Made by a program: the position numbers and the translations under genes. A DNA stretch of 64,000 nucleotides, from the NCBI GenBank assembly GCA_043725085.1, contig JAYSLY010000007.1, positions 1,471 to 65,470 on the forward strand. Reading direction: 5' to 3'. Each line of letters begins with the position of its first letter. The stretch's first letter is position 1. Source of the DNA: a bacterium (lineage in GTDB: Bacteria > Patescibacteriota > Minisyncoccia > Moranbacterales > UBA2206). This document shows, in pieces, positions 1 to 59,718 of this stretch. The notes under the pieces were generated by a model that searched no databases, had not been told where the DNA came from, and saw only the letters and a program-made list of their open reading frames with translations.

Positions 1-262
1 GTTTTTTCTGCAAATACTTCGCCAGCTCCTCATAATTTAAGCCCATTCTAATCGCATCAAAATCCAAATCTTCCGAAAACCGCTCAATGCCATAGGCAAA
101 GCGCAAACAAGTTCCGCCCAAAAACGCCAAGTGATTGCCATATTTGGAAGTATAGAGAATTTCCAAAATTTCTGATTGCAAATATTCCACCAAACAACGT
201 CTGGGATTATTGGGAATATTATTTCTTTTAATATAATCTTCCAAGAAATTTTTATCGAGCAT
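1..262 (-). CDS. AbiEii/AbiGii-family nucleotidyltransferase toxin, N-terminal part (gene runs off window start)
   Basis: Reverse strand from ATG (rc of cat at 260-262) reads MLDKNFLEDYIKRNNIP...HLAFLGGTCLRFAYGIERFSEDLDFD, the DUF1814/AbiEii N-terminal signature. Overlaps the upstream AbiEi gene by 11 nt. Confidence 0.65.
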   Translation of the reverse strand, partial: MLDKNFLEDYIKRNNIPNNPRRCLVEYLQSEILEILYTSKYGNHLAFLGGTCLRFAYGIERFSEDLDFDAIRMGLNYEELAKYLQKK

Positions 263-872
263 TTTTTTGATAGGCTAGCAAGCTTTCAATCAGCTTGGTC
301 ACTTTTTTGTCATTAAATAATTTTTTATACTCCCCAATTTTTTTCAAATCAAATTCAAACTCCTCATCAATCCGCAACTCCCGCCAAAAATTCTCCTGCG
401 CCACCAGCTTGTTTTTGTTGAGATAGAGATAATCCAAAATCGCCTTTTCCGGCGTGGCAATGTAAAAAGTCACATTTCTATCTTTTTGCATAACATACCC
501 GAAAAACAGACTACTTTTAATTTTTTGATAAGTAAAATTACCGAATTCATTTTCATAGGTAATGGTTTTTCTTGAAGTAACGGAAGTATAGGTGCCGGGA
601 ATATCGGGAATAATGCCATAATAGTTCAAAGCAAATTCCAAGCTCAAATAGGCCGGTGCATAGATTTTGGAAGCTAGTGACAATAAATTAATGTCATTTT
701 GAGCATTAGTCAAAAGATAGAGGCCTTTTCTAATTTTTTTGATATAGCCTTTCTTGGTCCAAAAAGCGATCTGAACAAGAATATTAGGCTCGGCAAAAAA
801 GATGTTTTTTGCTTCAATTGAGCTAAAAACAGGAAACCTAAGCATTTTTTTTTCGAACTCAAAAAATCGCAT
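252..872 (-). CDS. AbiEi-family type IV antitoxin (wHTH regulator)
   Basis: 206 aa. Contains ...KKGYIKKIRKGLYLL... and APAYLSLEFALNYYGIIPD, typical of AbiEi_4 antitoxins. Sits directly upstream of the AbiEii gene with overlap. Paralog of 10005-10577. Confidence 0.65.
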   Translation of the reverse strand: MRFFEFEKKMLRFPVFSSIEAKNIFFAEPNILVQIAFWTKKGYIKKIRKGLYLLTNAQNDINLLSLASKIYAPAYLSLEFALNYYGIIPDIPGTYTSVTSRKTITYENEFGNFTYQKIKSSLFFGYVMQKDRNVTFYIATPEKAILDYLYLNKNKLVAQENFWRELRIDEEFEFDLKKIGEYKKLFNDKKVTKLIESLLAYQKNAR

Positions 873-992
873 AGTTGTTTCTTTATATTAACATATATAA
901 TAATATCAAGAAACTTATATTTTGTCAACCCATTAACGTAATTCACCTATTTTGATGAATTATGTCATCAAATACAAAGCATGATAAAAAAA

Positions 993-1718
993 TTATTTTT
1001 TCTCCAACTCCACACTAATCCGCTTGGCGATAACTTCGCCGGCGTTGTTAGTGTAATTTCCCTCTTGAGAGATGTCTCGAAAGCCTAAGTTTTGGACAAT
1101 TTTGTGCGACGGCTTATCTTTTGGCACGTGCGCAATCAGCTTTTTGGCGCCAGAATTAATTTCTTCCGCCGTCACTTCTTGAAGAAAATTTTCTCCCACA
1201 TAGAATTTTTGGAGCAGCGGATCAATATTCATCGCGCCAAGATAGCGCTCGCCTTCCGACAAGGCCGCTCGCCCGTCAAATGTCGACGAGCGCACAAACC
1301 CGACCAGACTTCCGAGTGTTTTTTGCGACGCGCTGACATTTTCTTGGTCGAAATAGAGCAGATGAAATTTGGGATCATACGCTAGGTGTTTTTCAAAATC
1401 ACCGAGCAATCGCGCCAGATCTTCTTTAGATTTGTGCGCGTTAGCCGCCGCATACATCTCACGCAGTTTTTCTGTCAACGCCGAATCTTTTTTCAATTCT
1501 TCTTTTCCGACAGTCGTCAATTCCACACCCCCAATTTCTTCCAATTCTTGGACTTCACCGGCTTTTTTCGCCGCCACCAATAGCGAAGCCACCAAATCAA
1601 TTTCCGTGTGGCTCTTTTCCAAGTCAGTGAGAAGTTTTTGAATTTTATCTTCACTGGCTCGATCACCACTTTTCAACTCCGCGCTGAAATTGACAATAAT
1701 CTGATGTGCCCGCCGCAA
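993..1718 (-). CDS. hypothetical protein (241 aa) inside the TA islet
   Basis: Long ORF with coding-like composition. No motif recognised by eye. Confidence 0.45.
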   Translation of the reverse strand: MRRAHQIIVNFSAELKSGDRASEDKIQKLLTDLEKSHTEIDLVASLLVAAKKAGEVQELEEIGGVELTTVGKEELKKDSALTEKLREMYAAANAHKSKEDLARLLGDFEKHLAYDPKFHLLYFDQENVSASQKTLGSLVGFVRSSTFDGRAALSEGERYLGAMNIDPLLQKFYVGENFLQEVTAEEINSGAKKLIAHVPKDKPSHKIVQNLGFRDISQEGNYTNNAGEVIAKRISVELEKK

Positions 1719-1850
1719 TAGTTCCGTCCCTCCTGCCCGACTTATGCTTCGGGTCCGAGCGATTTTTGACCAGTATCATTGCTCGTAATGATTGACTGGC
1801 CGGAAAACTATTCCCAATGGACGAAGCGCTGATCCTTGGGGGTGATTTTT

Positions 1851-1869
1851 AATTCAACCGAAACAAAAG
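1851..1869. repeat. left arm of a 19-bp perfect inverted repeat flanking the MNT/HepT cassette
   Basis: aattcaaccgaaacaaaag. The exact reverse complement is at 2558-2576. Confidence 0.8.
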
Positions 1870-1921
1870 AAAAGCTATTTGGAAATTTGCTCTATAGGCA
1901 AATTTTTGCTATATTGAACTT

Positions 1922-2230
1922 ATGGATAAACTACTTGAAATCGAACAAAAACTAGTGGAAGCCATCCATAATGACCCGCACCGAGAAGATATGAAAAAAG
2001 TCTCTCTGTTCGGCTCCTATGTTTATGGCCAACCACGGGAAGATTCCGATGTGGATGTTTTGGTTGAATTTGAACCAAATGCGTCCATCGGGCTTTTTGA
2101 GTTTGTCAGAATTCAAAGAAGATTTTCCGAGTTTTCCGGAAAAAAAATTGACCTGCTCACGCCTTCCGCTCTGAGCAAATATTTTCGTGATGAAGTTCTT
2201 GCTAACGCCAAAACTATCTATGAAAAATGA
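1922..2230 (+). CDS. MNT-type minimal nucleotidyltransferase antitoxin
   Basis: 102 aa. LFGSYVYGQPREDSDVDVLVEF matches the GS...D.D nucleotidyltransferase motif. TTGCTC-17-TATATT promoter-like sequence at about 1885-1913. Confidence 0.75.
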   Translation: MDKLLEIEQKLVEAIHNDPHREDMKKVSLFGSYVYGQPREDSDVDVLVEFEPNASIGLFEFVRIQRRFSEFSGKKIDLLTPSALSKYFRDEVLANAKTIYEK

Positions 2231-2552
2231 CCAAGCTTTTCTCAAACATATTTAAGAATCCATCGAAGCCATAAATGAATCGCTTATTGGAATTTCTTAT
2301 GCGGAATTTTTAGAAAACAAACTACTCCTGAAAGCAATCGTGCGCGACTTGGAAATTATCGGCGAAGCGGCAAATAAAATCAGTTTGGAATTGCGCAACC
2401 TAAACCCGCAAATTCCTTGGCGAGATATGATTGATATGCGCAATGTCCTGATTCACGAATATTTTGGCGTCATTCCGGAAACAGTTTGGAAAACCTGTCA
2501 ACAAAATCTGCCTAAACTTAAGGAAGAAATTGACTTATTGCTCAGGCAATAA
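2220..2552 (+). pseudogene. HepT (DUF86/HEPN) toxin interrupted by an in-frame TAA at 2253-2255
   Basis: Frame from ATG 2220 reads MKNDQAFLKHI*ESIEAINESLIGISYAEFLENKLLLKAIVRDLEIIGEAANK...RNVLIHEY (Rx4HxY HEPN motif). The stop sits where Leu is expected (LKHI-L-ESIE), so a TTA to TAA change would account for it. The start overlaps the MNT stop by 11 nt. The ORF track shows only the GTG restart fragment 2340-2552. Confidence 0.6.
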
Positions 2553-2557
2553 TCCCC

Positions 2558-2576
2558 CTTTTGTTTCGGTTGAATT
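2558..2576. repeat. right arm of the 19-bp inverted repeat
   Basis: cttttgtttcggttgaatt is the exact reverse complement of 1851-1869. Confidence 0.8.
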
Positions 2577-2578
2577 GA

Positions 2579-2608
2579 CACTCGACTTTTTCAGTCGGGT
2601 GTTTTTTA
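2579..2608 (+). terminator. rho-independent terminator after HepT
   Basis: cactcgact-ttttc-agtcgggtg (9-bp stem, one mismatch) followed by tttttt. Confidence 0.55.
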
Positions 2609-3037
2609 ATTCCTATTTAATTGTCAATGAACTTTTTTGTGAATTAGCTCTTCTTTTCTAATTCACAAAAATGCCAGTGATACGGAGCATTCATGATGAA
2701 AGCTCCTTTTGATTTCCGAAGAAGAGAGATTTTGACGAAAAATCAACTTTTTTCTTATCACTAGCATTTTTCTAAAGATGATTGTTTTGAAATCATATTT
2801 AGCTCTCTTCTTCGACCACTGGAGCTTTCCGGTGATTTATCTTGACTGCGTAGTATATCATAATTTCACAGTTTTGTCTATATATCTTGTGCCATTTCTA
2901 GTGACATTGTCGTAAAACTCTTCAATTAAAACACTCTTTTGGCTTATATTCACTTGCATATTGTCATAATTAAAATTGACAATTATCTTATGGCGTGCTA
3001 GAATTAGGATATAAAACCTCTAAAAAACCAAAAAAAT

Positions 3038-3556
3038 ATGCCAAAAAATGAAAAACAAGCGCTAATTCCCGATGAGCGCATTATGAGCCGGATCTACTTT
3101 ATCCGCGGGGAAAAGGTAATGTTTGACCGAGATTTAGCCGAGCTTTATGGCGTGGAAACCAGAATACTTAAACAAGCAGTAAAAAGAAATTTGGACCGAT
3201 TTCCTTCAGATTTTATGTTTCAGCTGAATAAAAAAGAGCTTGAAATTTGGAGATCACAAATTGTGATGTCCAAAAGTGATAAGCAAGGATTGAGATGGCT
3301 ACCAATTGTTTTCACCGAACAAGGTGTCGCAATGCTTTCCGCTGTGCTCAAAAGCAAACGTGCTGTGGCAGTGAGCATTCAAATCGTGCGCACATTCGTG
3401 AAATTGCGCGAAATTTTGTCCACCCACACGAAACTACGCGAAAAAGTGGAACTGATGGAAGATAAATATGACAAGAGTTTCAAGGTGGTCTTTCAAATGA
3501 TCGCCAGACTGATGAAAGAAGACGCCCAGCCAAAAAAGCGCATTGGATTTTATTAG
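3038..3556 (+). CDS. ORF6N-domain protein (KilA-N-like, phage/defence-associated)
   Basis: SRIYFIRGEKVMFDRDLAELYGVETRILKQAVKRNLDRFPSDFMFQL is the characteristic ORF6N N-terminal block. Confidence 0.65.
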   Translation: MPKNEKQALIPDERIMSRIYFIRGEKVMFDRDLAELYGVETRILKQAVKRNLDRFPSDFMFQLNKKELEIWRSQIVMSKSDKQGLRWLPIVFTEQGVAMLSAVLKSKRAVAVSIQIVRTFVKLREILSTHTKLREKVELMEDKYDKSFKVVFQMIARLMKEDAQPKKRIGFY

Positions 3557-3563
3557 AACCCTT

Positions 3564-3598
3564 GGAGGCTCAACCTCCATAATGGAGGTTGAGCCTCC
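3564..3598 (+). terminator. perfect 17-bp palindrome 8 nt after the ORF6N stop (terminator or protein-binding site)
   Basis: ggaggctcaacctccat-a-atggaggttgagcctcc. Confidence 0.4.
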
Positions 3599-8532: not shown

Positions 8533-9267
8533 ATGGAGCAAGAATTATCCCAACTCGGCCTCACACCCAACGAAATCAAGGTTTATCTCGTACTTTTGGA
8601 ATTGGGCGAAAATACGGTGGGACCACTGATCAAGAAACTCGGGATGCACCGCCAAGTCGCCTATGATGCGCTCGAAGGCCTCAAAGAGAGAAATATGGTG
8701 CTTAGTTCCACCAAAAACAACCGCCTGATCTTTCGCATCGCCAACCCGCAAAATATCCTGGACAATATTGAACAACAAAAAATGGTGGCCAATAATCTGA
8801 TGGGTGAAATCAATGACCGCTTGGCCGGACAGAAAAAGGGCCAAGAAATCCGGGTCTATGAAGGCGAAAAAGCCTATCGTGATTTCATCCGCCGGAGAAA
8901 TGACTTGCAACCGCCCAATACGACATACATGGTTATGAGCGGAATGAGTTTGATATATAAAGATATGATGACCAAAGGCAGAATCTATGAACGGATCAAT
9001 CGCATTCGCAAAAAAAACAATATCAACACAAAAATTTTGATGAATGACGCCCATAGAAATGAAGCGGAAAAACTTCAGCGCGTCAACTCAGAGATTCGCT
9101 TTCTGCCGGAAGGCTTCAATTCCCCCACTTCATTTGACATCTGGCATGATTCCATCTCGCTCATCTCACACGCCAACGGCGTCTTCTGCATCGAGATCAA
9201 GAACGACGATTTTCACCGGTCCTATTTGACCTATTTTGAGTTGCTTTGGCAGATGGCGAAAAAATAG
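8533..9267 (+). CDS. TrmB-family HTH transcriptional regulator
   Basis: LTPNEIKVYLVLLELGENTVGPLIKKLGMHRQVAYDALEGL wHTH. Ends ...YFELLWQMAKK. Its last 49 nt are duplicated at 10599-10647. Confidence 0.55.
   Translation: MEQELSQLGLTPNEIKVYLVLLELGENTVGPLIKKLGMHRQVAYDALEGLKERNMVLSSTKNNRLIFRIANPQNILDNIEQQKMVANNLMGEINDRLAGQKKGQEIRVYEGEKAYRDFIRRRNDLQPPNTTYMVMSGMSLIYKDMMTKGRIYERINRIRKKNNINTKILMNDAHRNEAEKLQRVNSEIRFLPEGFNSPTSFDIWHDSISLISHANGVFCIEIKNDDFHRSYLTYFELLWQMAKK
9219..9267 (+). repeat. direct repeat DR1 (49 bp), which is the 3' end of the TrmB-like gene
   Basis: gtcctatttgacctattttgagttgctttggcagatggcgaaaaaatag. Repeated with one mismatch at 10599-10647. Confidence 0.8.
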
Positions 9268-9337
9268 AGTTGACAACTTCCCTATTATATGATACGCTAT
9301 TATTATCAAATATGTTAATAATTAAGTATCATTAAAT

Positions 9338-10033
9338 ATGAACGAAACTCAACTAACCAACTACATCAAAGAATTCGGCATCGCGCGCGACCAGATTTTG
9401 CGCGAAGAAGCGGAGATGGAAATTTTATCCGAACTTTCCAAAAGCAAATTAAGCGCGAACTTGGTTTTTTATGGCGGAACGGCTTTGCGATTAGCTTATG
9501 GCTCCCCGCGCTTTTCCGAAGACCTTGATTTATTGGTGATAAAAAAAATTAGTTTTGCCGAATTTAAAAACTTTACCGCAAGTTTAATTAAAAATCACAC
9601 AAATTGGACACTGAAAGATCTCAAAGATAAGCGCCGGATGATATTCGCTCTGGTTAGTATTAATGATGAAAAATTAAAGCATGCGTTTTCCGTCAAAATC
9701 GAAGTACACAAGCCTGAGCGCAAACCAAAATTAGAAACTGAACTAGCACTCGTCAAAAGCCCACTAAGCATCGCCGAGCCATTACTTTTAGTTCCAACAC
9801 TTACGGAACTAAAACGACTGAAAGAATCTGCCTTGGCCGGAAGAAAAAAAGGTCGCGATATTTTTGACCTTTGGTATATCGCCAAAGCTCTGCGTGAAAA
9901 TTTCATTCTGCCAAAAAATTTACCAAAATATGGAAAAAAAGAATTTCAAAATGAACTGCAAGTATTTTTGCCAAAAAAATACTACCCGGTCATAACTCAA
10001 CTCTATGAACAATTTGGAAATAAAACTAAATAG
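9338..10033 (+). CDS. AbiEii/AbiGii-family nucleotidyltransferase toxin
   Basis: 231 aa. LVFYGGTALRLAYGSPRFSEDLDLLV nucleotidyltransferase signature. Confidence 0.7.
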   Translation: MNETQLTNYIKEFGIARDQILREEAEMEILSELSKSKLSANLVFYGGTALRLAYGSPRFSEDLDLLVIKKISFAEFKNFTASLIKNHTNWTLKDLKDKRRMIFALVSINDEKLKHAFSVKIEVHKPERKPKLETELALVKSPLSIAEPLLLVPTLTELKRLKESALAGRKKGRDIFDLWYIAKALRENFILPKNLPKYGKKEFQNELQVFLPKKYYPVITQLYEQFGNKTK

Positions 10034-10577
10034 AATCCCTAAAAGCTATTTTTCTTTTGCCGATGCCAGAAAAGTCGCCCGGTTGGATGATGCAAGTCTC
10101 CGTGTGGCAATCAGCCGCTTAGTTAAGGCTGGAAAAATAATCTCGCTAACCAAGGGCTATTATTGCCAAGATTTGGCCAAGCTAGATTTTCCCAGGCTAG
10201 CGCTGGAAATTTATGCGCCAAGTTATTTGTCCTTTGAATGGGTGCTTGGGCAAACCGGTATTTTGAGCCAAAAATCCTATGCCTTGACACTTGCAACCGC
10301 AAAACGCGCTCGTCAAATTGAAATCGCCGGCACAACTTTGATCTATCGCCATTTGCAAACAGATTTATTTTTTGGATATGAAATCAAAGATGGCTACCTA
10401 ATTGCGCAGCCGGAAAAAGCTTTTTTAGATCTCGCCTATCTGTCTCTCAACGGCTACGCGAAATTTGATGCGGAAGAAATGAACTTGACGCTACTTGATG
10501 AAAATAAAATAAAAAACTACTTGAAAAAGTTTGGGAGTAAACGATTGAATACATTGATAAACAACTTATTTGCATAG
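10005..10577 (+). CDS. AbiEi-family antitoxin, placed after the toxin (inverted order)
   Basis: 190 aa. LRVAISRLVKAGKIISLTKGYYC and LEIYAPSYLSFEWVLGQTGIL mirror 252-872. Overlaps AbiEii by 29 nt. Confidence 0.65.
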   Translation: MNNLEIKLNRIPKSYFSFADARKVARLDDASLRVAISRLVKAGKIISLTKGYYCQDLAKLDFPRLALEIYAPSYLSFEWVLGQTGILSQKSYALTLATAKRARQIEIAGTTLIYRHLQTDLFFGYEIKDGYLIAQPEKAFLDLAYLSLNGYAKFDAEEMNLTLLDENKIKNYLKKFGSKRLNTLINNLFA

Positions 10578-41239: not shown

Positions 41240-41731
41240 ATGGGTGAATTAAATCAGATGGAAAGAGAAATGTTGGAAAAAGAAATTACAACAATCGTCG
41301 AAGAGTTGCTTGTGAAAATGGGCTTTGCTGCCACAATTGAAATTAAAGATGGCCAGGAAGAGGGCAAGGATGCGATTATTTATAATATTAAAACCGAGGA
41401 CTCTAATTTTTTAATCGGGCAATATGGAATGAATCTGCAATCATTGCAGCATATTGTACGGGTGATTATTCGAAAGCGCCTTCTTGAGCCGGTTAATTTT
41501 ATCCTGGATGTCAACTCCTATCGTCAAGAAAAAAATGATTCAATTGTGCGTTTGGCGAAAAACTTAGCTCAAGAGGCGGTTATGGAAAAGAGAGACGTTG
41601 TGATGCGACCAATGACTGCCTATGAACGGAGAATCGTGCACATGGAACTTTCCAAAGACGATCGTATTAAAACAGAAAGTATTGGCGAGGGCGAAAATCG
41701 CCGAATTATGATAAAGCCATTAGAGCAATAA
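41240..41731 (+). CDS. jag: Jag/KhpB KH+R3H RNA-binding protein
   Basis: Jag_N, then a KH domain, then the R3H motif PMTAYERRIVHMEL. Confidence 0.75.
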   Translation: MGELNQMEREMLEKEITTIVEELLVKMGFAATIEIKDGQEEGKDAIIYNIKTEDSNFLIGQYGMNLQSLQHIVRVIIRKRLLEPVNFILDVNSYRQEKNDSIVRLAKNLAQEAVMEKRDVVMRPMTAYERRIVHMELSKDDRIKTESIGEGENRRIMIKPLEQ

Positions 41732-41732
41732 T

Positions 41733-41752
41733 TTCAAATTTCAAATTTATTT
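41733..41752. repeat. AT-rich palindromic repeat family (copy A)
   Basis: tttcaaatttcaaattta. Related to the repeats at 55010, 56900, 58070 and 58508. Confidence 0.4.
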
Positions 41753-41755
41753 CTT

Positions 41756-53761: not shown

Positions 53762-54420
53762 TTCGTAAGATAAATAATATACGCGTCTAGGAATATTATA
53801 ACAAAAATACTCATAAAATACGAATAGAAAAATGATTTTGTTTTGTAGGCAAGAAATCCTGCGGTGACTGAGAGTAGGACAAGTGAGGCTGATTGCCAAG
53901 AAAGGGCTTTAGTAAAAAAAAGTAGCGTGAAAAATAGAATTGCTTGCACAGCAATTGCCCAATGTTTGAATTTTTTTTGCAAAACAGAAAGGAGAAAGCC
54001 TTGGAAGAAAAAACTGGAAGCAAAAACTGTGAAATTGACGATTAATAATTCATAGGCTAAAAATAGCCAAAAATTGTTTTTTATGTAATCTGATAATGTG
54101 TAGTTAGCCTTAAATTGGGTGTAATTTAGCATTAAATACAGTAAAAAAAGTGTAAAAAGTGCGGTGATTGCTCCCCAAGCCAGAGAAGTTATTGGATTTT
54201 TCAGATTGCAGCCAAAATCGGCGAGATCTTTTTTCAGAATAATTTTTACATAAGCAATCGGGAGAAGAATGAGAAAAAATAAGTTTTTTGTGATAGTTTG
54301 TACGGAGTTTTGGGTGGGAAAAACAGCGCTGGAGAAAAGACAAATGAGCGCCAGACCAAAACCGACCAGCAGTTCTTGGTTATCTTTCAAAAAATTTCGT
54401 GGTGTTTTTTGGCGGTACAT
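53758..54420 (-). CDS. polytopic membrane protein, possibly a CPBP/Abi-family-like intramembrane protease with degenerate motifs
   Basis: Six to seven TM helices. YELLIVN...FQGFLL and FKHWAIAVQ. Confidence 0.3.
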   Translation of the reverse strand: MYRQKTPRNFLKDNQELLVGFGLALICLFSSAVFPTQNSVQTITKNLFFLILLPIAYVKIILKKDLADFGCNLKNPITSLAWGAITALFTLFLLYLMLNYTQFKANYTLSDYIKNNFWLFLAYELLIVNFTVFASSFFFQGFLLSVLQKKFKHWAIAVQAILFFTLLFFTKALSWQSASLVLLSVTAGFLAYKTKSFFYSYFMSIFVIIFLDAYIIYLTK

Positions 54421-54436
54421 ATAAGTTAATGCTGCG

Positions 54437-55006
54437 CTAGTCTTGGTAGGCGTAGGCAGCTGTCATTCGGGCGGCTTCTCTTTGTTCTTCTGCGGCGGCT
54501 TCTCTTCTGTTTTTTAGGATTAAAATAAAAATAACAAATGTCGTGATTGTTTCCAGGGGAAGAAAGTCTATGATAGGCAGCATTTCAAGAACGGTGCCGG
54601 CAATGAGAACTTTCCATTTATCAGGAGTAAAAATACTTTTTATCATGGATCTTTTCTTGCTTTGGCGCAACCCGGCACCGCAAAGAAGCATAGCCGCCCA
54701 GGTAATAATTCCGGCCATAAAGGCTGTAACTACGCCAAGAAGCTGTAGGCCAGGAACGGCATTTGCGACAAAATCGACAATGTCTTTCAGGAGAGAGCTC
54801 ATTATGGCAATGGCAAAAAAGAAATCTGTGAGCTGGATAAATTTTCTAAGATGTTCGGTGTCGGTAACTTCGGCTTCTCTGGCGATTTCATTGGCTAGTT
54901 TTCCTAGACTCTTTTTTTGCTTATTAACTTCAAGCTCTCTCTTTTTTTCTGCATCAGCCGCTCTTTGCGCCTCTAGGCGTTGTTGGTTTTCTTCTTCTTT
55001 TGACAT
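54437..55006 (-). CDS. membrane protein with a charged coiled-coil N-terminus (possible T4SS accessory component)
   Basis: N-terminal EENQQRLEAQRAADAEKKRELE, then three TM helices. Confidence 0.35.
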   Translation of the reverse strand: MSKEEENQQRLEAQRAADAEKKRELEVNKQKKSLGKLANEIAREAEVTDTEHLRKFIQLTDFFFAIAIMSSLLKDIVDFVANAVPGLQLLGVVTAFMAGIITWAAMLLCGAGLRQSKKRSMIKSIFTPDKWKVLIAGTVLEMLPIIDFLPLETITTFVIFILILKNRREAAAEEQREAARMTAAYAYQD

Positions 55007-55009
55007 ATC

Positions 55010-55045
55010 GCATAATTTGAAATTTCAAATTTCAAATTTAAAATT
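55010..55045. repeat. AT-rich palindromic repeat (copy B)
   Basis: aatttgaaatttcaaatttcaaatttaaaatt immediately upstream of the ATG at 55006. Confidence 0.45.
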
Positions 55046-55052
55046 ATGGAGC

Positions 55053-56897
55053 TTATTCTTCCTCGCTAAATTCCTTCTTTGCCCTTTCGATGTCTAGCAG
55101 TTGCGACGGGTCGGTAGTGATGATTTGATCTTCAGAATAGGACGCAACGACTTTGATGGCGACGTGATTTGTGCCGGCAAAAAAGATGCCCTCTCCCACG
55201 TTGCTTTCGAGGAGCAAGAATTTTTCTTGATCAGTGAGATAGAATGTGTCAGAAATCACATCAATTCCGGCCGGCGATTGCTTGAGCAGGAGCTGCAAAG
55301 ACGAGTTGGTCACAATCGCTTTGCCATAGCGAGAAGAAAGAAAGTCGTTCACATCTTGTGTGATGGTGGTGAGTCCGGTGAAATATTTTCGGCAGCGCTT
55401 GGCGATACCAAAAAGGAAAGAAGCGGCGTCTTCATATTTCATCATTACCCAAGCTTCATCAACCAAAACTAGGCGCTTTTTCATGTTGGTGCGCATTTCA
55501 TTCCAGATAAATTGCAAGATGGTGTACATAGCAACCGGACGCAATTCCTCTTCCATATCGCGGATATTAAACACCACCAGCTGATTATCAACTTTAATGT
55601 TAGTGGCGTGATTGAGAAATCCGGCGAAAATTCCTTCGGTGTATTTTTCCAGGCGAACAGCCAAAACCTCTCCGCCGTCCAGGCTGCGCAAGACTTGATA
55701 GAGGTCGGACATTGTTGGGAAAGAATCTTTGCTTAAAGCATTTAAATCCGCTTCCGCAGTGATGTCTCTAATTGAATAAGTTTCGTGGATTGCTCGATCC
55801 AAAACAGAATCTTCTTCCGGAGTGATTGATCCGAGCATGATGTGGAGTAGTCCCAGGAGATTGGCAATGTTATTGCGCAAAATATCTTCCGGGTCATCAT
55901 CTTCTCCGACATGCGGCAGGTCAAAAGGATTGAGATGGTTGGTCGAATTGAGGGAAATCTTGATGAAAGTTCCTTCAACAGTGTCGCAGAGGTGACGGTA
56001 TTCATTTTCCGGGTCGATAATGATGACATCAGTGCCTACCATCATCGAACGCAAAACTTCCAACTTGACGGTATAACTTTTTCCCGCTCCAGACTTGGCA
56101 AAAACTACCATGTTAGCATTTTCCATTCCAAAACGGTCGAAAATAATCAAGCTGTTATTGTGGCGGTTAATGCCATAGAGGATTCCTGTATTAGATGAAA
56201 GAGTGGAAGAGACAAAAGGAAAGGTGGTGGAAAGCGGTGAGCTATTCATGTTTGTTCCCACGTCTAACTCGTCGTTGGCAAGGGGTAACGATGAGTTGAA
56301 GCCTTGTTCTGATTTGAAAACAGCCGGTTTGACATAGACTAATTGGGCTTCCAAAATAGCCTCAATGCTTTTTATGTTTTTCGTAACCGCTTCTTCGCTA
56401 TCGCCATAGGCGGTGATGTAGAGGGAAAAACGAAAAAATTTTTCTGTGCCTTGTTGCAGCTTATCTCTGAGTTCATCAATATCTTGTTGAGCGGTTTCCA
56501 GAGCGGGGTCTCTGATGAGGCCTTTGGTTTGTTCGATTTGAATCTGTGATTCAACTTGAGTGGCGCTTTTTTTCAAAGTTTTCAAAATATCATAGGTATC
56601 GACCGGATGAATAAACATGGAGATGTCAATCGGCATATCGATATTTATAATGGGAGAAAACCAATTACTGTGCAAATAGCGCGGATAGGCGATGATGAAG
56701 ATGGTTTGCGCAATCGTTTCTCCGATGCGAATCGATTTCGGCATAATTCTGATTGCGGCGGGAGCGATGATGTCGTTGAGCTTGGCCAGCCCTTCTTGAT
56801 AATATTTTTCCGATTCCAAAACCTCGTCTTGCGGTTTTGCGACTTTTTTTGCGGGAGCGGTTAGGCCCTCATCTTTTTTAGCGAATAAATTTAGCAT
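55053..56897 (-). CDS. virB4: VirB4/TraE-family type IV secretion ATPase (ATPase portion)
   Basis: AYPRYLHSNWFSPIINIDMPID. Walker A VVFAKSGAGKSYTV. Walker B region LVLVDEAW. Confidence 0.8.
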   Translation of the reverse strand: MLNLFAKKDEGLTAPAKKVAKPQDEVLESEKYYQEGLAKLNDIIAPAAIRIMPKSIRIGETIAQTIFIIAYPRYLHSNWFSPIINIDMPIDISMFIHPVDTYDILKTLKKSATQVESQIQIEQTKGLIRDPALETAQQDIDELRDKLQQGTEKFFRFSLYITAYGDSEEAVTKNIKSIEAILEAQLVYVKPAVFKSEQGFNSSLPLANDELDVGTNMNSSPLSTTFPFVSSTLSSNTGILYGINRHNNSLIIFDRFGMENANMVVFAKSGAGKSYTVKLEVLRSMMVGTDVIIIDPENEYRHLCDTVEGTFIKISLNSTNHLNPFDLPHVGEDDDPEDILRNNIANLLGLLHIMLGSITPEEDSVLDRAIHETYSIRDITAEADLNALSKDSFPTMSDLYQVLRSLDGGEVLAVRLEKYTEGIFAGFLNHATNIKVDNQLVVFNIRDMEEELRPVAMYTILQFIWNEMRTNMKKRLVLVDEAWVMMKYEDAASFLFGIAKRCRKYFTGLTTITQDVNDFLSSRYGKAIVTNSSLQLLLKQSPAGIDVISDTFYLTDQEKFLLLESNVGEGIFFAGTNHVAIKVVASYSEDQIITTDPSQLLDIERAKKEFSEEE

Positions 56898-56899
56898 GT

Positions 56900-56972
56900 A
56901 ATTGTGAATTTGAAATTTGAAGTTTTAAATTTAAAATGAAATCGAAATTACTAAATTTTAAATTGAAAATTT
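56900..56972. repeat. AT-rich palindromic repeat (copy C) forming the 75-nt gap that splits VirB4
   Basis: gaatttgaaatttgaagttttaaatttaaaatgaaatcgaaattactaaattttaaattgaaaatt. Confidence 0.45.
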
Positions 56973-57659
56973 TCATTTGAGTTCCATCTTCTCCGTATCG
57001 ATATAGCCTTTAGTGTCGAAGATGGTCGGATTGTAGGCATTAAACAGCAGTTCAATCAGCTCGGGGGTTTTCAGGGGAATGATTTTGACGCCAATGCCGG
57101 AAAGTCCGGCGGTGAGGTGATCGACTCTTTGATAAAGTTGGCTTTTGTATGTTTCAAATGTTTCTCTTTTTTCCAGGATGCTTCTTTTGGGATTCAGCAT
57201 GTTGGAAAGATTGCTCAGAAAACTTCTGTCTTGATTTTCCATGGGAGAAAATGGCACGACTATGTAGAAAGTTTTGTCCATAATGTCAGACATGGAGACC
57301 AATTGGGTGATAAAATTTTTATATTCTGAAATTTGCAAACGCATCAGTTCAGTTTTTTGTTGTTTTTCTTTGGTAGTTAGAAAATCAATATAGGTGTCGA
57401 TGTTCAATTTCCGTGAGCTAATAAGAACTTGCATCGGAAAGTCAACTGAGTTGAGGAAATTTTGATATTGGCTGATGATAGCTTCTTGTTCATCGGTGGC
57501 CTTGAGTTCAAAATTGATCGCGGAAACAGCTAAAACTGCCCTCATCGAGCCGTTTTTAAGCACAATCACATCTTCTTTGACTTCTGCCACATCAAGATAT
57601 TGCTGGGTCGGCGAAGCGGCGGATTGTTTGGCGAGCTTTTGAGAATATAGTTTTTCCAT
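56973..57659 (-). CDS. VirB4 N-terminal domain (CagE/TrbE/VirB family) encoded as a separate ORF
   Basis: QYLDVAEVKEDVIVLKNGSMRAVLAVSAINFELKATDEQEAIISQYQNFLNSV aligns with the canonical VirB4 N-terminus (IVLLEDGSIMSIARIDGVAFELEEIEMRNARCRAFNTLMRNI). Confidence 0.6.
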   Translation of the reverse strand: MEKLYSQKLAKQSAASPTQQYLDVAEVKEDVIVLKNGSMRAVLAVSAINFELKATDEQEAIISQYQNFLNSVDFPMQVLISSRKLNIDTYIDFLTTKEKQQKTELMRLQISEYKNFITQLVSMSDIMDKTFYIVVPFSPMENQDRSFLSNLSNMLNPKRSILEKRETFETYKSQLYQRVDHLTAGLSGIGVKIIPLKTPELIELLFNAYNPTIFDTKGYIDTEKMELK

Positions 57660-57665
57660 TGATTT

Positions 57666-58067
57666 TTATTTTTTCCTTATGTCTAATAATTGCGAAATAT
57701 CAGCGACTTTTTGAGCGTCAAATTTCTTTTTTGTAACGACTGAAGCCGCATTTTCTTTTTTGTCGATGGTGGTTTTTTGAATTTTTTCCGTGACGCGGCG
57801 CCAGATATACATTTTTGGACGAGTAGCAAAAAGGACTGAGGAAAGAATGAATTTAATCAGCGGTTGGTTGTAGGGGCGATAAAAGGCCAATGCTCCAAAA
57901 ATGACGGCGATGATAATGGCGGAAAGAATGAAAGCGGATTGGTCGAGTGTTCCATAGCAAATCAAAAGCACAACTCCTCCGGCGGCTAACCAGCCAAGTT
58001 GTCTGGCGGTCAGCGGACCGACGATTTTGTCTTCAATATCGATAAATTGGGGGACGTTGAAAATCAT
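57666..58067 (-). CDS. PrgI-family (VirB3-like) small membrane protein
   Basis: NVPQFIDIEDKIVGPLTARQLGWLAAGGVV followed by two TM helices. Confidence 0.55.
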   Translation of the reverse strand: MIFNVPQFIDIEDKIVGPLTARQLGWLAAGGVVLLICYGTLDQSAFILSAIIIAVIFGALAFYRPYNQPLIKFILSSVLFATRPKMYIWRRVTEKIQKTTIDKKENAASVVTKKKFDAQKVADISQLLDIRKK

Positions 58068-58069
58068 GA

Positions 58070-58128
58070 ATTTGAAATTTAAAATTAGAAATTTGAAATG
58101 AAATTTTAATTTCTAAATTTAAAACTGT
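58070..58128. repeat. AT-rich palindromic repeat (copy D)
   Basis: gaatttgaaatttaaaattagaaatttgaaatgaaattttaatttctaaatttaaaa. Confidence 0.45.
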
Positions 58129-58130
58129 GT

Positions 58131-58505
58131 CTATTGGGTTTCTTTGTTTTCTTTCAGTGTCAGGGCTATTTTTGAAAATATCAATGTTAGTTCTTGTGCT
58201 TCTTTCCAGAGTTTTCTGCCTTCTTCTTTGTGTTCAGGATTGGATTTTGCAAGGAGTTCTAGCCAATATTTTGTTTCTTTGCACTCCTTTTTGCAGATAT
58301 AGATCTTATTGTGGAAATCCTTTTTTGAGCTTGCTCCGTTAGCTTCGCAGTAATTCGCGCCTATGCTGGTCGCAGAACGAACCAGTTGGCTCATCAGTGG
58401 AGTGTTTGTGATGTCTCTGCTTAATTTTTTAATAAAAACAATTACCTCTTCACTAAACTTCAGAGTTCTGGACTCTAAATCATACTTTTCCGAATTTTTT
58501 GTCAT
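58131..58505 (-). CDS. four-helix-bundle protein (TIGR02436-type, formerly '23S rRNA intervening-sequence protein')
   Basis: SATSIGANYCEANGASSKKDFHNKIYICKKECKETKYWLELL. Confidence 0.6.
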   Translation of the reverse strand: MTKNSEKYDLESRTLKFSEEVIVFIKKLSRDITNTPLMSQLVRSATSIGANYCEANGASSKKDFHNKIYICKKECKETKYWLELLAKSNPEHKEEGRKLWKEAQELTLIFSKIALTLKENKETQ

Positions 58506-58507
58506 TT

Positions 58508-58545
58508 AATAATTTAAATTTTGATATTGATTTAAAATTTCAAAT
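58508..58545. repeat. AT-rich palindromic repeat (copy E)
   Basis: aatttaaattttgatattgatttaaaatttcaaatttaaaatt. Confidence 0.4.
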
Positions 58546-59718
58546 TTAAAATTGGTCATTGTTCTTTAAGTCTACCACATTTTTTGGCATTGGTCTTGGG
58601 GTGGAATAATTAATTCTGGCAATTGGCGTGGGAGCGGGATAATTTTTTTGAAGCGGCTTTGGAATTTCCGGTGATTTTTCCGTGGAGAATGTTTGGGGTG
58701 ATGAAAATTTAATATTCTCTGCCGTGTTTCCATTTCTCAAGGCTTCTTTTTGGGGCAAATCTCTTCTCCAGGCGGCAATTCTTTCCTCGTCAGTTTGAAA
58801 TCTTTGCTGGCCTCCCGAAATGGTTTGTCTTGTTGGGTAGTTTCCTTGGCCTCTTTGGATTTCTGCCGGCTCGAAATTATTGCGAGTGGCACCTGGATTC
58901 ATTGTTGGTCTTTGCGGAATTTCTCTTTTTTCCGGTGCGGCAAAAACAACTTGCTTGGTGTTACCGTTGATTGAGATTGGTGTTTTTTCTTCAAATGATT
59001 TGAGAATGGCAGTTAGTTTTTCGCGGTCTTGACTGGAAAGCGGTCGGCCATTTTCACTTTTGAAAAGATAGTTTCCGCGTACAATCGGATCATGATTGCT
59101 GATGCCAACGGTGAAAGTGTAGTCAGAAAGCCAGTTTTTGATTGACGGACGCACCGGTTCGGGGAAAACCTTGAGTTTGATGTGATTTGAAGTGATGAGC
59201 TGCTCGCCTAGTTCAGGATATTTTTCTAAGGCAAGTTCGATTGGCATATTTTCCAATTGAGATTGCTGTTTTCTTATTATTTCATCTTCTGCTCTTTTTT
59301 CTTTTATTTTCTCTCTTTCTTCTTCTAAAATCCATGGCTCTAGCTCTAAAACTTTTTTCCAGGCCTCGCTTTCGGAAATCAGTGGGTTGGATTTCTTGTT
59401 GGACCATTCTTCCAGTAAGCTTAGTGAATCTTTGAAAAAATCAGGAAAACGGGCAAAAATTCGTTGGTTTATTTCATAGGCAATGCCAAAAATAACCTGT
59501 TCTGGTTGTTTTAGATCCTTGGCGATTATCGCAGGGTAATCCTTTAGTTTTAATTCGCCGATAAAAATGAGTGCGATTGGGTAGGATAATGTTTTTATTA
59601 CTTCTTCGCTTAATCCATAGATAAAACAGGTCTTTTCAATTTCATATCGTGGCGCATCAGATATAATAAATTCTCTCAGTGTATTTGGTAATTTATTTCT
59701 TTTTTCTAAATAGCTCAT
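58546..59718 (-). CDS. hypothetical protein with a Pro/Gln-rich C-terminal tail (390 aa)
   Basis: Long ORF with no recognised domain. Embedded in the T4SS-like cluster. Confidence 0.45.
   Translation of the reverse strand: MSYLEKRNKLPNTLREFIISDAPRYEIEKTCFIYGLSEEVIKTLSYPIALIFIGELKLKDYPAIIAKDLKQPEQVIFGIAYEINQRIFARFPDFFKDSLSLLEEWSNKKSNPLISESEAWKKVLELEPWILEEEREKIKEKRAEDEIIRKQQSQLENMPIELALEKYPELGEQLITSNHIKLKVFPEPVRPSIKNWLSDYTFTVGISNHDPIVRGNYLFKSENGRPLSSQDREKLTAILKSFEEKTPISINGNTKQVVFAAPEKREIPQRPTMNPGATRNNFEPAEIQRGQGNYPTRQTISGGQQRFQTDEERIAAWRRDLPQKEALRNGNTAENIKFSSPQTFSTEKSPEIPKPLQKNYPAPTPIARINYSTPRPMPKNVVDLKNNDQF

What the first reader, a model, noticed from the sequence alone, without database searches (positions are those of the whole stretch)
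1851..2612. MNT/HepT toxin-antitoxin cassette bracketed by 19-bp perfect inverted repeats, with HepT disrupted by a single nonsense codon
aattcaaccgaaacaaaag (1851-1869) and its exact reverse complement (2558-2576) flank the two-gene module, so it looks like a discrete inserted cassette.

The HepT frame starting at ATG 2220 overlaps the MNT stop by 11 nt. It has an in-frame TAA at 2253-2255, at the Leu position of the conserved LKHIL-ESIE block.

A one-base TTA to TAA change would inactivate the toxin while leaving the antitoxin intact. The Rx4HxY motif survives only in a GTG-restart fragment.
Basis: seen in the sequence. Interest (0 to 1): 0.55.

Follow-up and report, generated by a model that had tools for sequence, protein, structure and literature searches.

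The report
Old toxin-antitoxin cassette with dead toxin
This is an ordinary MntA/HepT toxin-antitoxin gene pair on the chromosome of a Moranbacteria-like bacterium. Its toxin gene was recently killed by one stop codon, and it carries an unusually well-conserved pair of inverted 16-19-bp sites whose job is still unknown.

Summary
A perfect 19-bp inverted repeat lies at 1851-1869 and 2558-2576. It flanks an MNT gene (1922-2230) and a HepT frame (2220-2552) with an in-frame TAA at 2253-2255.

- **Stop codon:** the closest intact relative has CAA (Gln) there, so the change is most simply CAA to TAA, not TTA to TAA. The position is variable among homologues. An independent Logan assembly carries the same TAA.
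- **Discrete unit:** two related genomes keep both flanks but lack the module. The indel is 1851-2613. Its left edge is the first base of the left arm; its right edge lies 37 bp beyond the right arm, after the terminator.
- **Age:** the module is old and looks vertically inherited. I found no target-site duplication and no extra copies.
- **Repeat conservation:** the repeat occurs in only three lineages. Both arms are sequence-invariant although synonymous sites are saturated, apart from one complementary double change. The adjacent terminator stem has turned over completely.
- **Transcription:** the left arm sits upstream of a leaderless-type promoter, so it is probably not in the main mRNA.

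My best guess is a paired protein-recognition (operator-like) site, not transposon ends. The repeat's function is unproven.

The parts
1851..2613 (+). The whole toxin-antitoxin cassette as an indel unit (763 bp): left arm, promoter, mntA, hepT pseudogene, right arm, terminator.
   Evidence: L223 matches window 1775-1850 and 2614-2812 but has an unrelated 127-bp filler in between. L221 has the same neighbourhood without the module.
1806..1850 (+). Left flank, outside the cassette: hairpin followed by a T-run (terminator-like).
   Evidence: Conserved in L223, which lacks the cassette. Folds at -13.4 kcal/mol with a modest z-score of -1.9.
1840..1855 (+). Left copy of the direct repeat GGGTGATTTTTAATTC. 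It straddles the left edge of the cassette.
   Evidence: family D3, 15 of 16 identical to 2597-2612. L002 has a shorter TTTCTATTC at both equivalent places.
1851..1869 (+). Left arm of the 19-bp perfect inverted repeat. It lies at about -71 to -53 relative to the inferred transcription start.
   Evidence: The 16-nt core TCAACYGAAACAAAAG is conserved in L002 and L215.
1854..1879 (+). Conserved 26-nt left block: TCAACYGAAACAAAAG, 5 variable nt, then YTATT.
   Evidence: It is the best-conserved non-coding stretch upstream in the three lineages. The same bipartite pattern appears in the right copy.
1884..1905 (+). Palindrome AAATTTGC-N6-GCAAATTT across the -35/spacer region. It is specific to the window: L002 lacks 8 nt here.
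   Evidence: Read from the sequence and the alignments.
1887..1915 (+). Promoter: -35 TTGCTC (1887-1892), 17-nt spacer, extended -10 TGCTATATT (1907-1915). The -10 ends 6 nt before the ATG, which implies a leaderless mRNA starting near 1922.
   Evidence: TGCTAnnnT followed by 6 nt and the ATG is conserved in every related module, including those without the repeat. The same extended -10 type is seen upstream of other genes in the window. Only 6 of 57 genes have a Shine-Dalgarno-like motif.
1922..2230 (+). mntA antitoxin gene (minimal nucleotidyltransferase, 102 aa), intact, with the GSX10DXD motif (GSYVYGQPREDSDVD).
   Evidence: Pfam. PDB 1WOT at 1.3e-07. Motif definition from PMC7641770.
2220..2552 (+). 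hepT toxin gene, now a pseudogene. It is a 110-codon frame overlapping mntA by 11 nt.
   Evidence: Pfam HepT-like 2.9e-27 when repaired. 89% identical to the intact P0001.
2253..2255 (+). Premature TAA at codon 12. Relatives have CAA (L002) or CTT (L215).
   Evidence: The same TAA is in the Logan contig L001.
2340..2552 (+). GTG-restart ORF (70 aa) that keeps the Rx4HxY motif (RNVLIHEY) but lacks the first 40 residues.
   Evidence: A gene caller annotated it as a 70-aa HepT-like protein in L001 (P0012).
2548..2573 (+). Conserved right block: AATAA, 5 variable nt, then CTTTTGTTTCRGTTGA. It mirrors the left block. AATAA overlaps the hepT stop codon.
   Evidence: In L215 the TAATAA is kept even though hepT ends 14 nt earlier there.
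2558..2576 (+). Right arm of the inverted repeat, in the 3' untranslated region between the hepT stop and the terminator.
   Evidence: Its inner half, CTTTTGTTT, is also present after the stop codon in related modules that lack a left arm.
2577..2607 (+). Intrinsic terminator: 11-bp stem, 5-nt loop, T-run.
   Evidence: -14.9 kcal/mol, z -5.8. L002 and L215 have a hairpin plus U-run at the same place, with entirely different stem sequences.
2597..2612 (+). Right copy of the direct repeat, GGGTGTTTTTTAATTC (terminator tail).

Best explanation
This is a self-contained, chromosomal type VII (MntA/HepT) toxin-antitoxin cassette of 763 bp (1851-2613). It consists of a conserved upstream site, a leaderless-type promoter, mntA, hepT overlapping it by 11 nt, a second copy of the site in inverted orientation in the 3' untranslated region, and an intrinsic terminator.

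It sits in a variable intergenic slot between a hairpin plus T-run and the ORF6N-TrmB-PolA genes of a Moranbacteria-like (CPR) chromosome. It appears to have been there since before three lineages diverged, and it is missing in other relatives.

In the window's lineage the toxin gene was recently inactivated by a C to T change (CAA to TAA, codon 12). The antitoxin gene and all cis elements remain intact.

The inverted repeat is not a pair of transposon ends. It is a pair of sequence-specific cis sites, TCAACYGAAACAAAAG-N5-YTATT, under strong purifying selection. I infer, without proof, that they are operator-like sites bound by one factor. The most economical candidate is cassette-encoded MntA or the MntA-HepT complex. 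One site would abut the promoter and the other lie at the operon's 3' end, allowing a repression loop.

**Shown:** anatomy, homology, the nonsense codon, the indel boundaries, and conservation of the arms.
**Inferred:** leaderless start, loss of toxin function, protein binding and looping.

The confidence of 0.5 covers the statement as a whole. The identity, pseudogene and ancient-discrete-cassette parts I put at about 0.85. The operator-site reading of the repeat I put at about 0.35-0.4.
For: **Identity**
- Pfam MNT and HepT hits.
- Both motifs that define the family are present: RX4HXY and GSX10DXD (definitions in PMC7641770).
- A profile match to Shewanella oneidensis HepT structures 5YEP and 6M6U.

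**Nonsense codon**
- Present in two assemblies.
- Relatives have CAA or CTT at that codon.
- There is no other lesion. First and second codon positions are 94% identical to L002 against 67% for third positions.
- Lineage-specific amino-acid changes are balanced: 4 in the window, 5 in L002. This points to a recent event.

**Discrete unit, ancient**
- Empty or differently filled sites in L221 and L223, with breakpoints at 1850/1851 and 2613/2614.
- The same site and orientation in the window, L002-L004 and L215.
- Cassette divergence is in the same range as that of TrmB and ORF6N.

**Arms under selection for sequence**
- Four-fold degenerate sites are only 36-53% identical between the three lineages.
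- All 20 paired positions of the bipartite element are kept in all six copies. The single difference is a complementary C:G versus T:A change.
- The neighbouring terminator keeps its structure but not its sequence.

**Left arm not in the main mRNA**
- TGCTAnnnT lies exactly 6 nt before the ATG in all related modules.
- It is the usual promoter type in this genome, which almost lacks Shine-Dalgarno motifs.

**Precedent**
- S. oneidensis MntA binds and represses its own promoter (PMC4621449).

**Not a repeat family**
- Only two copies in the window.
- About 65 analysable distant MNT/HepT loci, plus seven nearer modules without the repeat, show nothing above chance.
Against: - No binding data exist.
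- The 16-nt core has no internal dyad or clear direct-repeat symmetry, which is unusual for bacterial operators.
- MNT proteins of closely related modules (about 70-80% identical) function without these sites. If MntA is the binder, the sites are a lineage-specific addition.
- A complementary double change is what base pairing or recombination between the arms would predict. A protein-site model has to treat it as coincidence, for which I estimate odds of roughly 2-3%.
- The formal covariation test has no power with three sequences (174 of 500 shuffles reach the observed score).
- Loss of toxin activity is inferred from the truncation, not measured.
- Reads were not inspected.
Confidence: 0.5

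Rival explanations
1. RNA model. The two arms pair within one transcript, 5' region with 3' untranslated region. This closes the mRNA into a 16-19-bp (plus 4-bp) stem that controls stability or translation, as the fbi/tac pairing does in hok mRNA or the 5'-3' UTR pairing in icaR mRNA.
For: - Watson-Crick pairing is perfect in all three lineages, and the only change is compensatory.
- A G:U intermediate would be tolerated on the + strand.
- The right arm is certainly transcribed, since it lies between the stop codon and the terminator.
- A further 4-bp helix, UAUU:AAUA, follows a 5-nt gap in all six copies.
Against: - The conserved extended -10 lies 6 nt before the ATG, which places the start near 1922, downstream of the left arm.
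- The left arm sits directly after a hairpin plus T-run on the + strand, so read-through from upstream should be low.
- No convincing promoter was found upstream of 1851 (and inspection).
- At this divergence a purely structural helix should show many compensatory changes, as the terminator does. Instead 19 of the 20 paired positions (15 of 16 in the core) never vary.
Confidence: 0.17
2. Recombination model. The arms are recognition sites for a site-specific recombinase or transposase encoded elsewhere. The enzyme would invert the 688-bp segment or mobilise the cassette. In a circular form the arms would come within about 45 nt of each other, around the terminator hairpin.
For: - The sites are sequence-specific, inverted and asymmetric, and the left arm starts exactly at the indel boundary.
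- A 16-bp direct repeat flanks the unit.
- The cassette is present or absent at one chromosomal site among relatives.
- Homologous modules sit at other loci in other genomes, after PolA or next to RuvA.
- A matched change in both sites is expected if the position lies in a crossover region.
Against: - All contigs of all three lineages show the same orientation.
- No recombinase or transposase gene lies within about 15 kb.
- The core has no dyad symmetry of the kind dif, lox or hix sites have (inspection).
- There is no target-site duplication next to the arms.
- The right arm is 37 bp inside the right boundary.
- The modules that did change locus lack the repeat.
- Cassette divergence is in the same range as host-gene divergence.
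Confidence: 0.13
3. MITE or IS-derived cassette. The 19-bp repeats are terminal inverted repeats of a non-autonomous transposon that recently carried the toxin-antitoxin pair into this site.
For: The 19-bp repeat is perfect, the unit is a discrete indel, and the region is a variable island rich in toxin-antitoxin genes.
Against: - No target-site duplication abuts the arms: the flanks are GATTTTT and GACACTC in the window, TTTCTA and CCCGCC in L002.
- There are only two copies in 64 kb.
- The right arm is not at the indel edge.
- The same site is occupied in lineages with saturated synonymous sites, so the insertion is not recent.
- Scans of 185,579 species genomes and 2.9 million viral contigs gave only scattered single matches consistent with chance.
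Confidence: 0.05
4. The TAA is not a real loss of function. It could be a consensus or sequencing error, a minority allele, or be bypassed by read-through or re-initiation, leaving active HepT.
For: - The rest of the gene is flawless and still looks constrained.
- Only consensus assemblies were seen.
- This organism barely uses Shine-Dalgarno motifs, so start-site rules may be loose.
Against: - Two assemblies, reported from two samples, agree base for base.
- TAA is the commonest genuine stop in this window: 27 of 43 long ORFs end in it.
- The nearest in-frame canonical start after the stop is GTG 2340, which removes 40 residues of a roughly 110-residue helical bundle.
Confidence: 0.08
5. Neutral relic. 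The left arm is a leftover of an inverted duplication of the 3' untranslated region element and has no function. The matched change is chance or gene conversion.
For: The inner half of the right arm (CTTTTGTTT) is ancestral to the whole module family, including members without a left arm. The left arm therefore looks like a derived copy.
Against: Thirty-two positions stay identical across lineages whose four-fold degenerate sites are 36-53% identical. This cannot be neutral.
Confidence: 0.03

Closest known systems
Type VII HepT/MntA (HEPN/MNT) toxin-antitoxin systems, for example Shewanella oneidensis SO_3166/SO_3165 (PDB 5YEP, 6M6U, 7BXO; PMC7641770, PMC4621449)
   Same: - Gene order, with mntA first and hepT overlapping it.
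- Small sizes (102 and 110 aa).
- The RX4HXY motif in HepT and the GSX10DXD motif in MntA.
- Pfam families.
- A precedent for MntA binding its own promoter.
   Different: - The toxin carries a premature stop at codon 12.
- Sequence similarity to the solved proteins is only detectable at profile level (1e-06).
- The promoter is of a leaderless type.
- A conserved inverted site pair spans the whole operon. Such a pair is absent from the about 65 analysable distant MNT/HepT loci plus seven nearer modules examined.
Acinetobacter dif modules: gene modules, often toxin-antitoxin pairs, flanked by inversely oriented pdif XerC/XerD sites (PMC6449649, PMC13141974)
   Same: A small toxin-antitoxin module between two inverted copies of one short site, with presence or absence varying between related replicons.
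   Different: - pdif sites are 28 bp with two 11-bp arms of partial dyad symmetry around a 6-bp spacer. The 16-19-mer here has no such symmetry.
- The sites here are not both at the module edges.
- This module is chromosomal and single-copy.
- No shuffling between replicons was seen.
Integron gene cassettes carrying toxin-antitoxin genes
   Same: A compact unit of promoter, toxin-antitoxin genes and 3' hairpin. The arms happen to contain RYYYAAC (ATTCAAC) and GTTRRRY (GTTGAAT).
   Different: - The two boxes are 700 bp apart and in the wrong relative order for an attC site.
- The 3' hairpin is an ordinary terminator.
- There is no cassette array.
- No integrase was seen: none among the families listed for the window (one search shows only 25 of 78) and none in the genes scanned one by one.
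MITEs and IS terminal inverted repeats
   Same: A perfect 19-bp inverted repeat around about 700 bp, with asymmetric arms.
   Different: No target-site duplication, no other copies, a sub-terminal right arm, and long-term residence at one site with the arms under selection.
Long-range 5'-3' mRNA pairing (hok mRNA fbi/tac; Staphylococcus aureus icaR UTR pairing); from my own knowledge
   Same: Complementarity between sequence upstream of a toxin-antitoxin operon and its 3' untranslated region, with one compensatory change.
   Different: The upstream partner appears to lie outside the transcript.
Invertons (DNA segments inverted between short inverted repeats by invertases, as in fimS, hin and Bacteroides promoters); from my own knowledge
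   Same: Short inverted repeats flanking a segment of less than 1 kb.
   Different: The segment holds a whole operon with its own promoter. No orientation variants were seen and no nearby invertase was found.

Membership tests
HepT/MntA (type VII HEPN/MNT) toxin-antitoxin | HEPN toxin with the RX4HXY motif | tested here: met
   RNVLIHEY at residues 74-81. Pfam HepT-like 2.9e-27. R74, H79 and Y81 are invariant in 21 homologues.
HepT/MntA (type VII HEPN/MNT) toxin-antitoxin | MNT antitoxin with the GSX10DXD nucleotidyltransferase motif | tested here: met
   GSYVYGQPREDSDVD in the 102-aa product. Pfam NTP_transf_2 and Polbeta. PDB 1WOT. Motif definition from PMC7641770.
HepT/MntA (type VII HEPN/MNT) toxin-antitoxin | Two-gene operon with the antitoxin upstream and the genes overlapping | tested here: met
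   11-nt overlap, ATGAAAAATGA. The same arrangement is seen in all relatives.
HepT/MntA (type VII HEPN/MNT) toxin-antitoxin | Intact, translatable toxin gene | tested here: not met
   TAA at codon 12 in two assemblies. It is therefore a member by descent with a pseudogenised toxin.
HepT/MntA (type VII HEPN/MNT) toxin-antitoxin | RNase toxicity neutralised by AMPylation of the motif tyrosine | not testable with these tools
   Needs expression and biochemistry.
MITE / IS-type transposable element | Terminal inverted repeats at both ends of the inserted unit | tested here: not met
   The left arm starts at the indel edge (1851). The right arm ends at 2576, whereas the indel ends at 2613.
MITE / IS-type transposable element | Target-site duplication directly flanking the repeats | tested here: not met
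   Flanks are GATTTTT and GACACTC in the window, TTTCTA and CCCGCC in L002. The 16-bp direct repeat is offset from the right arm by 20 bp.
MITE / IS-type transposable element | Multiple copies in the genome or in related genomes | tested here: inconclusive
   Only the two arms occur in 64 kb, even allowing 3 mismatches. Collection scans gave only single matches consistent with chance. The rest of this genome was not available.
dif (Xer) module | 28-bp sites with two partly symmetric 11-bp arms around a 6-bp spacer, in inverse orientation at both module edges | tested here: not met
   The shared core is 16 nt, with no dyad symmetry and no conserved extension shared by both copies.
Integron gene cassette | attC site (R''-L''...L'-R' within 57-141 bp) at the 3' end, with an integrase and cassette array nearby | tested here: not met
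   The RYYYAAC and GTTRRRY matches are 700 bp apart and in reversed order. The 3' hairpin is a plain terminator. No integrase appeared among the 25 of 78 families listed for the window or in the genes scanned one by one.
Inverton (invertible segment) | Both orientations observable, with an invertase gene | tested here: inconclusive
   About ten contigs from three lineages all show one orientation. No recombinase lies within about 15 kb. Reads were not available.
Structured RNA helix (5'-3' UTR pairing) | Both partners transcribed on one RNA, with covariation supporting pairing | tested here: inconclusive
   60 of 60 cells are paired, with one double-sided change. The shuffle control reaches the observed score 174 of 500 times with n=3. 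The promoter position argues that the left arm is not transcribed.

The most novel reading that the evidence does not exclude
The 16-nt inverted sites could be recognition sites of an undescribed cassette-handling system in CPR bacteria. That might be site-specific insertion and excision at terminator tails, with the two arms flanking the joint in a circular intermediate. Alternatively, it might be a new mode of type VII toxin-antitoxin autoregulation, in which the MntA-HepT complex bridges an upstream site and a 3'-end site to loop out its own operon.
Probability: 0.15. Interest if true: 0.6.

Novelty: new variant of a known kind. Interest (0 to 1): 0.33.

Why it matters
The toxin-antitoxin pair and its decay are routine. 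Chromosomal modules of this kind are often lost or pseudogenised, and here the same slot is intact in two lineages, toxin-dead in one and empty in two.

The part worth noting is the inverted site pair. It is among the most strongly conserved non-coding sequence in the cassette, it is lineage-specific, and it spans the entire operon. That arrangement has not been described for HepT/MntA systems.

If it proves to be an operator pair or a recombination site pair, it would add a regulatory or mobility mechanism to the most abundant predicted toxin-antitoxin family. The host is a group of bacteria (CPR) that cannot yet be grown for genetics.

The locus also gives a clean natural example of a leaderless, Shine-Dalgarno-free operon design.

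Tried and rejected
- **Is a flanking repeat general to MNT/HepT modules?** No. Among 80 metagenomic loci, about 65 of them analysable, and seven nearer modules without the repeat, the best 5'/3' complementarity was 5-10 nt, at chance level.
- **Is the 16/17-mer a repeat family?** Scans of genome contigs and viral contigs gave only single scattered matches in unrelated taxa, with no MNT/HepT nearby.
- **Is the L223 filler a remnant of the cassette?** Local alignments were no better than shuffles.
- **Known RNA families or tRNA targets?** None in the window. The weak mir-153 match is a generic hairpin.
- **Alternative genetic code?** Rejected. TAA ends 27 of 43 long ORFs, and TGA and TAG also act as stops.
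- **Other MNT or HepT copies in the window that the orphan antitoxin might serve?** None.
- **Right arm as a relic of an MNT 'DVLVEF' coding stretch?** It is 14 of 15 identical to 2056-2070 (D4/I4), but this is not kept in L002, so it was treated as chance.
- **Left block as a sigma-70 promoter (TTCAAC-N17-TATTnn) mirrored by an antisense promoter at the right arm?** The spacing fits in all six copies, but the key final T of the -10 is missing in five of six. Kept only as a remote idea.
- **Integron attC and Xer dif architectures?** Considered and not met (see the membership table).
- **Structure prediction and the large representative-protein search?** Not run, because they would not bear on the open question.
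Full report
**1. Checking the observation**

The 19-mer AATTCAACCGAAACAAAAG is at 1851-1869 and its exact reverse complement is at 2558-2576. Allowing three mismatches, these are the only two copies in the 64-kb window, and no dinucleotide-preserving shuffle gave two matches.

ORF 1922-2230 encodes a 102-aa minimal nucleotidyltransferase (Pfam Polbeta and NTP_transf_2). It carries the GSX10DXD motif. The frame from ATG 2220 overlaps its stop by 11 nt and reads MKNDQAFLKHI*ESIEAI..., with TAA at 2253-2255. With that codon repaired, it matches Pfam HepT-like at 2.9e-27 and has the RX4HXY motif (RNVLIHEY). The motif definitions come from PMC7641770.

The 70-aa GTG-restart ORF 2340-2552 keeps the motif. 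An independent Logan assembly (L001, SRR22198310, reported from two samples) is identical to window 1-3569, including the TAA.

**2. The nonsense codon**

The closest intact homologue is P0001 (89% aa), found in GCA_027351145.1 and GCA_021833485.1 (loci L002-L005). It reads CATATT-CAA-GAATCC where the window reads CATATT-TAA-GAATCC. A third lineage, L215, has CTT. The simplest history is therefore a C to T transition in a Gln codon, not TTA to TAA.

Residue 12 is variable among homologues: Q, R, L, K, C and others. It lies at the very start of the Pfam domain.

Nothing else is wrong with the gene:
- Against L002, codon positions 1 and 2 are 94% identical and position 3 is 67% identical.
- Polarised amino-acid changes are balanced, with 4 derived in the window and 5 in L002. 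One of the window's changes is F58L, at a site that is F in all eight outgroups.

The inactivation therefore looks recent.

TAA is the commonest genuine stop in the window (27 of 43 long ORFs). The next canonical in-frame start is 85 nt downstream and would remove the first 40 residues of a roughly 110-residue helical domain. Loss of toxin function is thus a reasonable inference, but it has not been measured.

**3. Genomic setting**

The window is chromosomal DNA of a CPR bacterium. Its relatives are labelled Candidatus Moranbacteria. It carries DnaA, DnaN, YidC, RuvB, RuvC, IspD/F/G, PolA, Fpg and HolA.

The module lies in an island rich in toxin-antitoxin genes: RuvA, AbiEii, a 206-aa gene, a gene fragment, MNT-HepT, ORF6N, TrmB, PolA.

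**4. Is the module a discrete unit?**

Yes. A search with the neighbouring TrmB protein led to two informative relatives.

- **L221** (a 179.8-kb contig) has the neighbourhood RuvA, AbiEii, a 206-aa gene, an intact 746-aa gene, a 90-aa ORF, then ORF6N, TrmB and PolA, with no MNT/HepT.
- **L223** matches window 1775-1850 (80.5%) and 2614-2812 (84.9%). Between them it has 127 bp with no significant similarity to the cassette.

The indel is therefore 1851-2613. Its left edge is the first base of the left arm. Its right edge comes after the terminator, 37 bp beyond the right arm. A 16-bp direct repeat, GGGTGWTTTTTAATTC (1840-1855 and 2597-2612), straddles the edges, and L002 has a shorter equivalent. 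The left flank is a hairpin plus T-run that L223 also has.

**5. Old, not recently inserted**

The module occupies the same site, in the same orientation, in three lineages:
- the window and L001;
- L002-L004;
- L215 (P0006, 68-69% aa).

Four-fold degenerate sites are only 48-53% identical between the window and L002, and 36-44% identical to L215.

The MNT/HepT identity between the window and L002 (87-89%) is in the same range as that of TrmB (82%) and ORF6N (80%). On TrmB identity, L003, L221 and L223 are closer to one another (84-88%) than any is to the window (82%). Ancestral presence with two losses is therefore the more economical reading. Repeated site-specific gain is not excluded.

More distant homologous modules (69-75% aa) sit elsewhere: directly after PolA (L086, L214), next to RuvA (L091), or in unrelated contexts (L089, L213). 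The unit of shared sequence there runs from the promoter to the terminator, and these modules have no left arm.

**6. The inverted repeat**

It is not a general feature of MNT/HepT modules. Among 80 metagenomic loci, about 65 of them analysable, plus seven nearer modules without the repeat, only the three lineages above have it. The shared element is bipartite, TCAACYGAAACAAAAG-N5-YTATT, and appears in all six copies.

All 20 complementary positions are kept in all three lineages. The only difference is C:G in the window against T:A in L002 and L215, changed in both arms. With three sequences the shuffle control is uninformative (174 of 500). My own rough estimate is that a matched change by coincidence has odds of about 2-3%.

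The stronger argument is conservation. Thirty-two core positions are invariant, although neutral sites are saturated. By contrast, the terminator next to the right arm keeps its hairpin and U-run in all three lineages but shares no stem sequence. Selection therefore acts on the sequence of the arms, not merely on their ability to pair. This points to recognition by a protein or other trans-acting factor.

The inner half of the right arm (CTTTTGTTT) also follows the stop codon in the modules that lack a left arm. The left arm therefore looks like a derived inverted copy of an ancestral 3' untranslated region element.

**7. Where the arms lie relative to transcription**

Every related module has TGCTAnnnT exactly 6 nt before the mntA ATG. 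The same extended -10 type precedes other genes in the window (PolA, ORF6N, Fpg). Only 6 of 57 genes have a Shine-Dalgarno-like motif.

This implies a leaderless mRNA starting near 1922. The left arm would then sit at about -71 to -53, directly after a + strand hairpin and T-run, and so outside the main transcript. The right arm is in the 3' untranslated region, just before the terminator. This weakens the 5'-3' RNA-pairing idea without excluding a minor upstream start.

**8. What the repeat most likely is**

I favour a pair of operator-like sites for one factor, with MntA or the MntA-HepT complex as the simplest candidate. There are two reasons. The cassette is otherwise self-contained, and S. 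oneidensis MntA binds and represses its own promoter (PMC4621449).

Weaknesses of this view:
- the core has no symmetry;
- similar MNT proteins in sister modules do without such sites;
- the matched change would have to be coincidence.

The rivals are set out with their evidence in the separate fields: RNA pairing, recombinase or transposase sites (inversion, or a cassette joint in a circular form), a MITE, and a neutral relic. A MITE is poorly supported, because there is no target-site duplication, no other copies, a sub-terminal right arm, and an ancient fixed position. dif-module and integron architectures were tested and not met.

**9. Verdict**

This is a known kind of system with a routine pseudogenisation, plus one unexplained, strongly conserved cis feature. 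The proposed mutation path and the MITE-like reading were not.

Interest is modest. It would rise if the site pair proved to be a new regulatory loop or a cassette recombination site in CPR bacteria.

Noticed in passing
window 993-1718 (- strand), breakpoint about 1727-1745: The 241-aa ORF is the C-terminal third of a larger gene. It matches residues 437-681 of a 680-aa protein in L002 (60% identity) and the 746-aa gene of L221. Similarity stops abruptly and a stop codon lies just upstream. It is probably a 5'-truncated remnant left by a rearrangement beside the toxin-antitoxin cassette.
   Followed up: partly
window 2614-2850: A non-coding block between the cassette and the ORF6N gene is more conserved than coding DNA (about 85-97% to L002 and L223) and is absent from L221. 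It folds into several long hairpins (z -5.3 on the + strand, -6.4 on the - strand) and matches no Rfam family. It could be a structured RNA or a separate non-coding insertion unit. Its first hairpin loop (2642-2657) is 88% complementary to 1865-1880, next to the left arm.
   Followed up: partly
whole window (57 gene starts): Only 6 of 57 genes have a Shine-Dalgarno-like motif. Many genes have an extended -10 of the form TGCTAnnnT 25-35 nt upstream. A few (1922, 16533, 63900) have a -10-like hexamer (with the extended TG at 1922 and 63900) ending 6-8 nt before the ATG, which suggests leaderless mRNAs.
   Followed up: partly
window 1-872 (- strand), and 8533-10577 (+ strand): There are two further AbiE-type modules. 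One is the 3' end of an AbiEii gene plus a 206-aa partner at the window start (complete in L001 and L221). The other is a TrmB-like gene, an AbiEii gene and a 190-aa ORF after PolA. The same trio occurs in L086.
   Followed up: partly
window about 41720-41755 and 54400-58560, intergenic: A recurring AT-rich motif of the form AAATTTCAAATTTCAAATT lies just upstream of several genes (41756, 54437, 55053, 57666, 58131). These include a TraG/VirB4-like ATPase and a PrgI-like protein. It may be a shared regulatory or repeat element.
   Followed up: no
window 1884-1905: A perfect 8-bp palindrome, AAATTTGC-N6-GCAAATTT, spans the -35/spacer of the mntA promoter. It is present only in the window's lineage, because L002 has an 8-nt deletion there. 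It could be a lineage-specific operator.
   Followed up: no
L002 5580-5636: A 25-nt-arm hairpin (88% complementary, 7-nt loop) of about 55 nt is inserted between the left-flank hairpin and the left arm in L002 only. It looks like a small palindromic insertion.
   Followed up: no
L223 5812-5938: The 127-bp filler that replaces the cassette in L223 contains two perfect 8-bp-stem hairpins (ATCCTGAA/TTCAGGAT and ATTCCGGA/TCCGGAAT). Its origin is unknown.
   Followed up: partly
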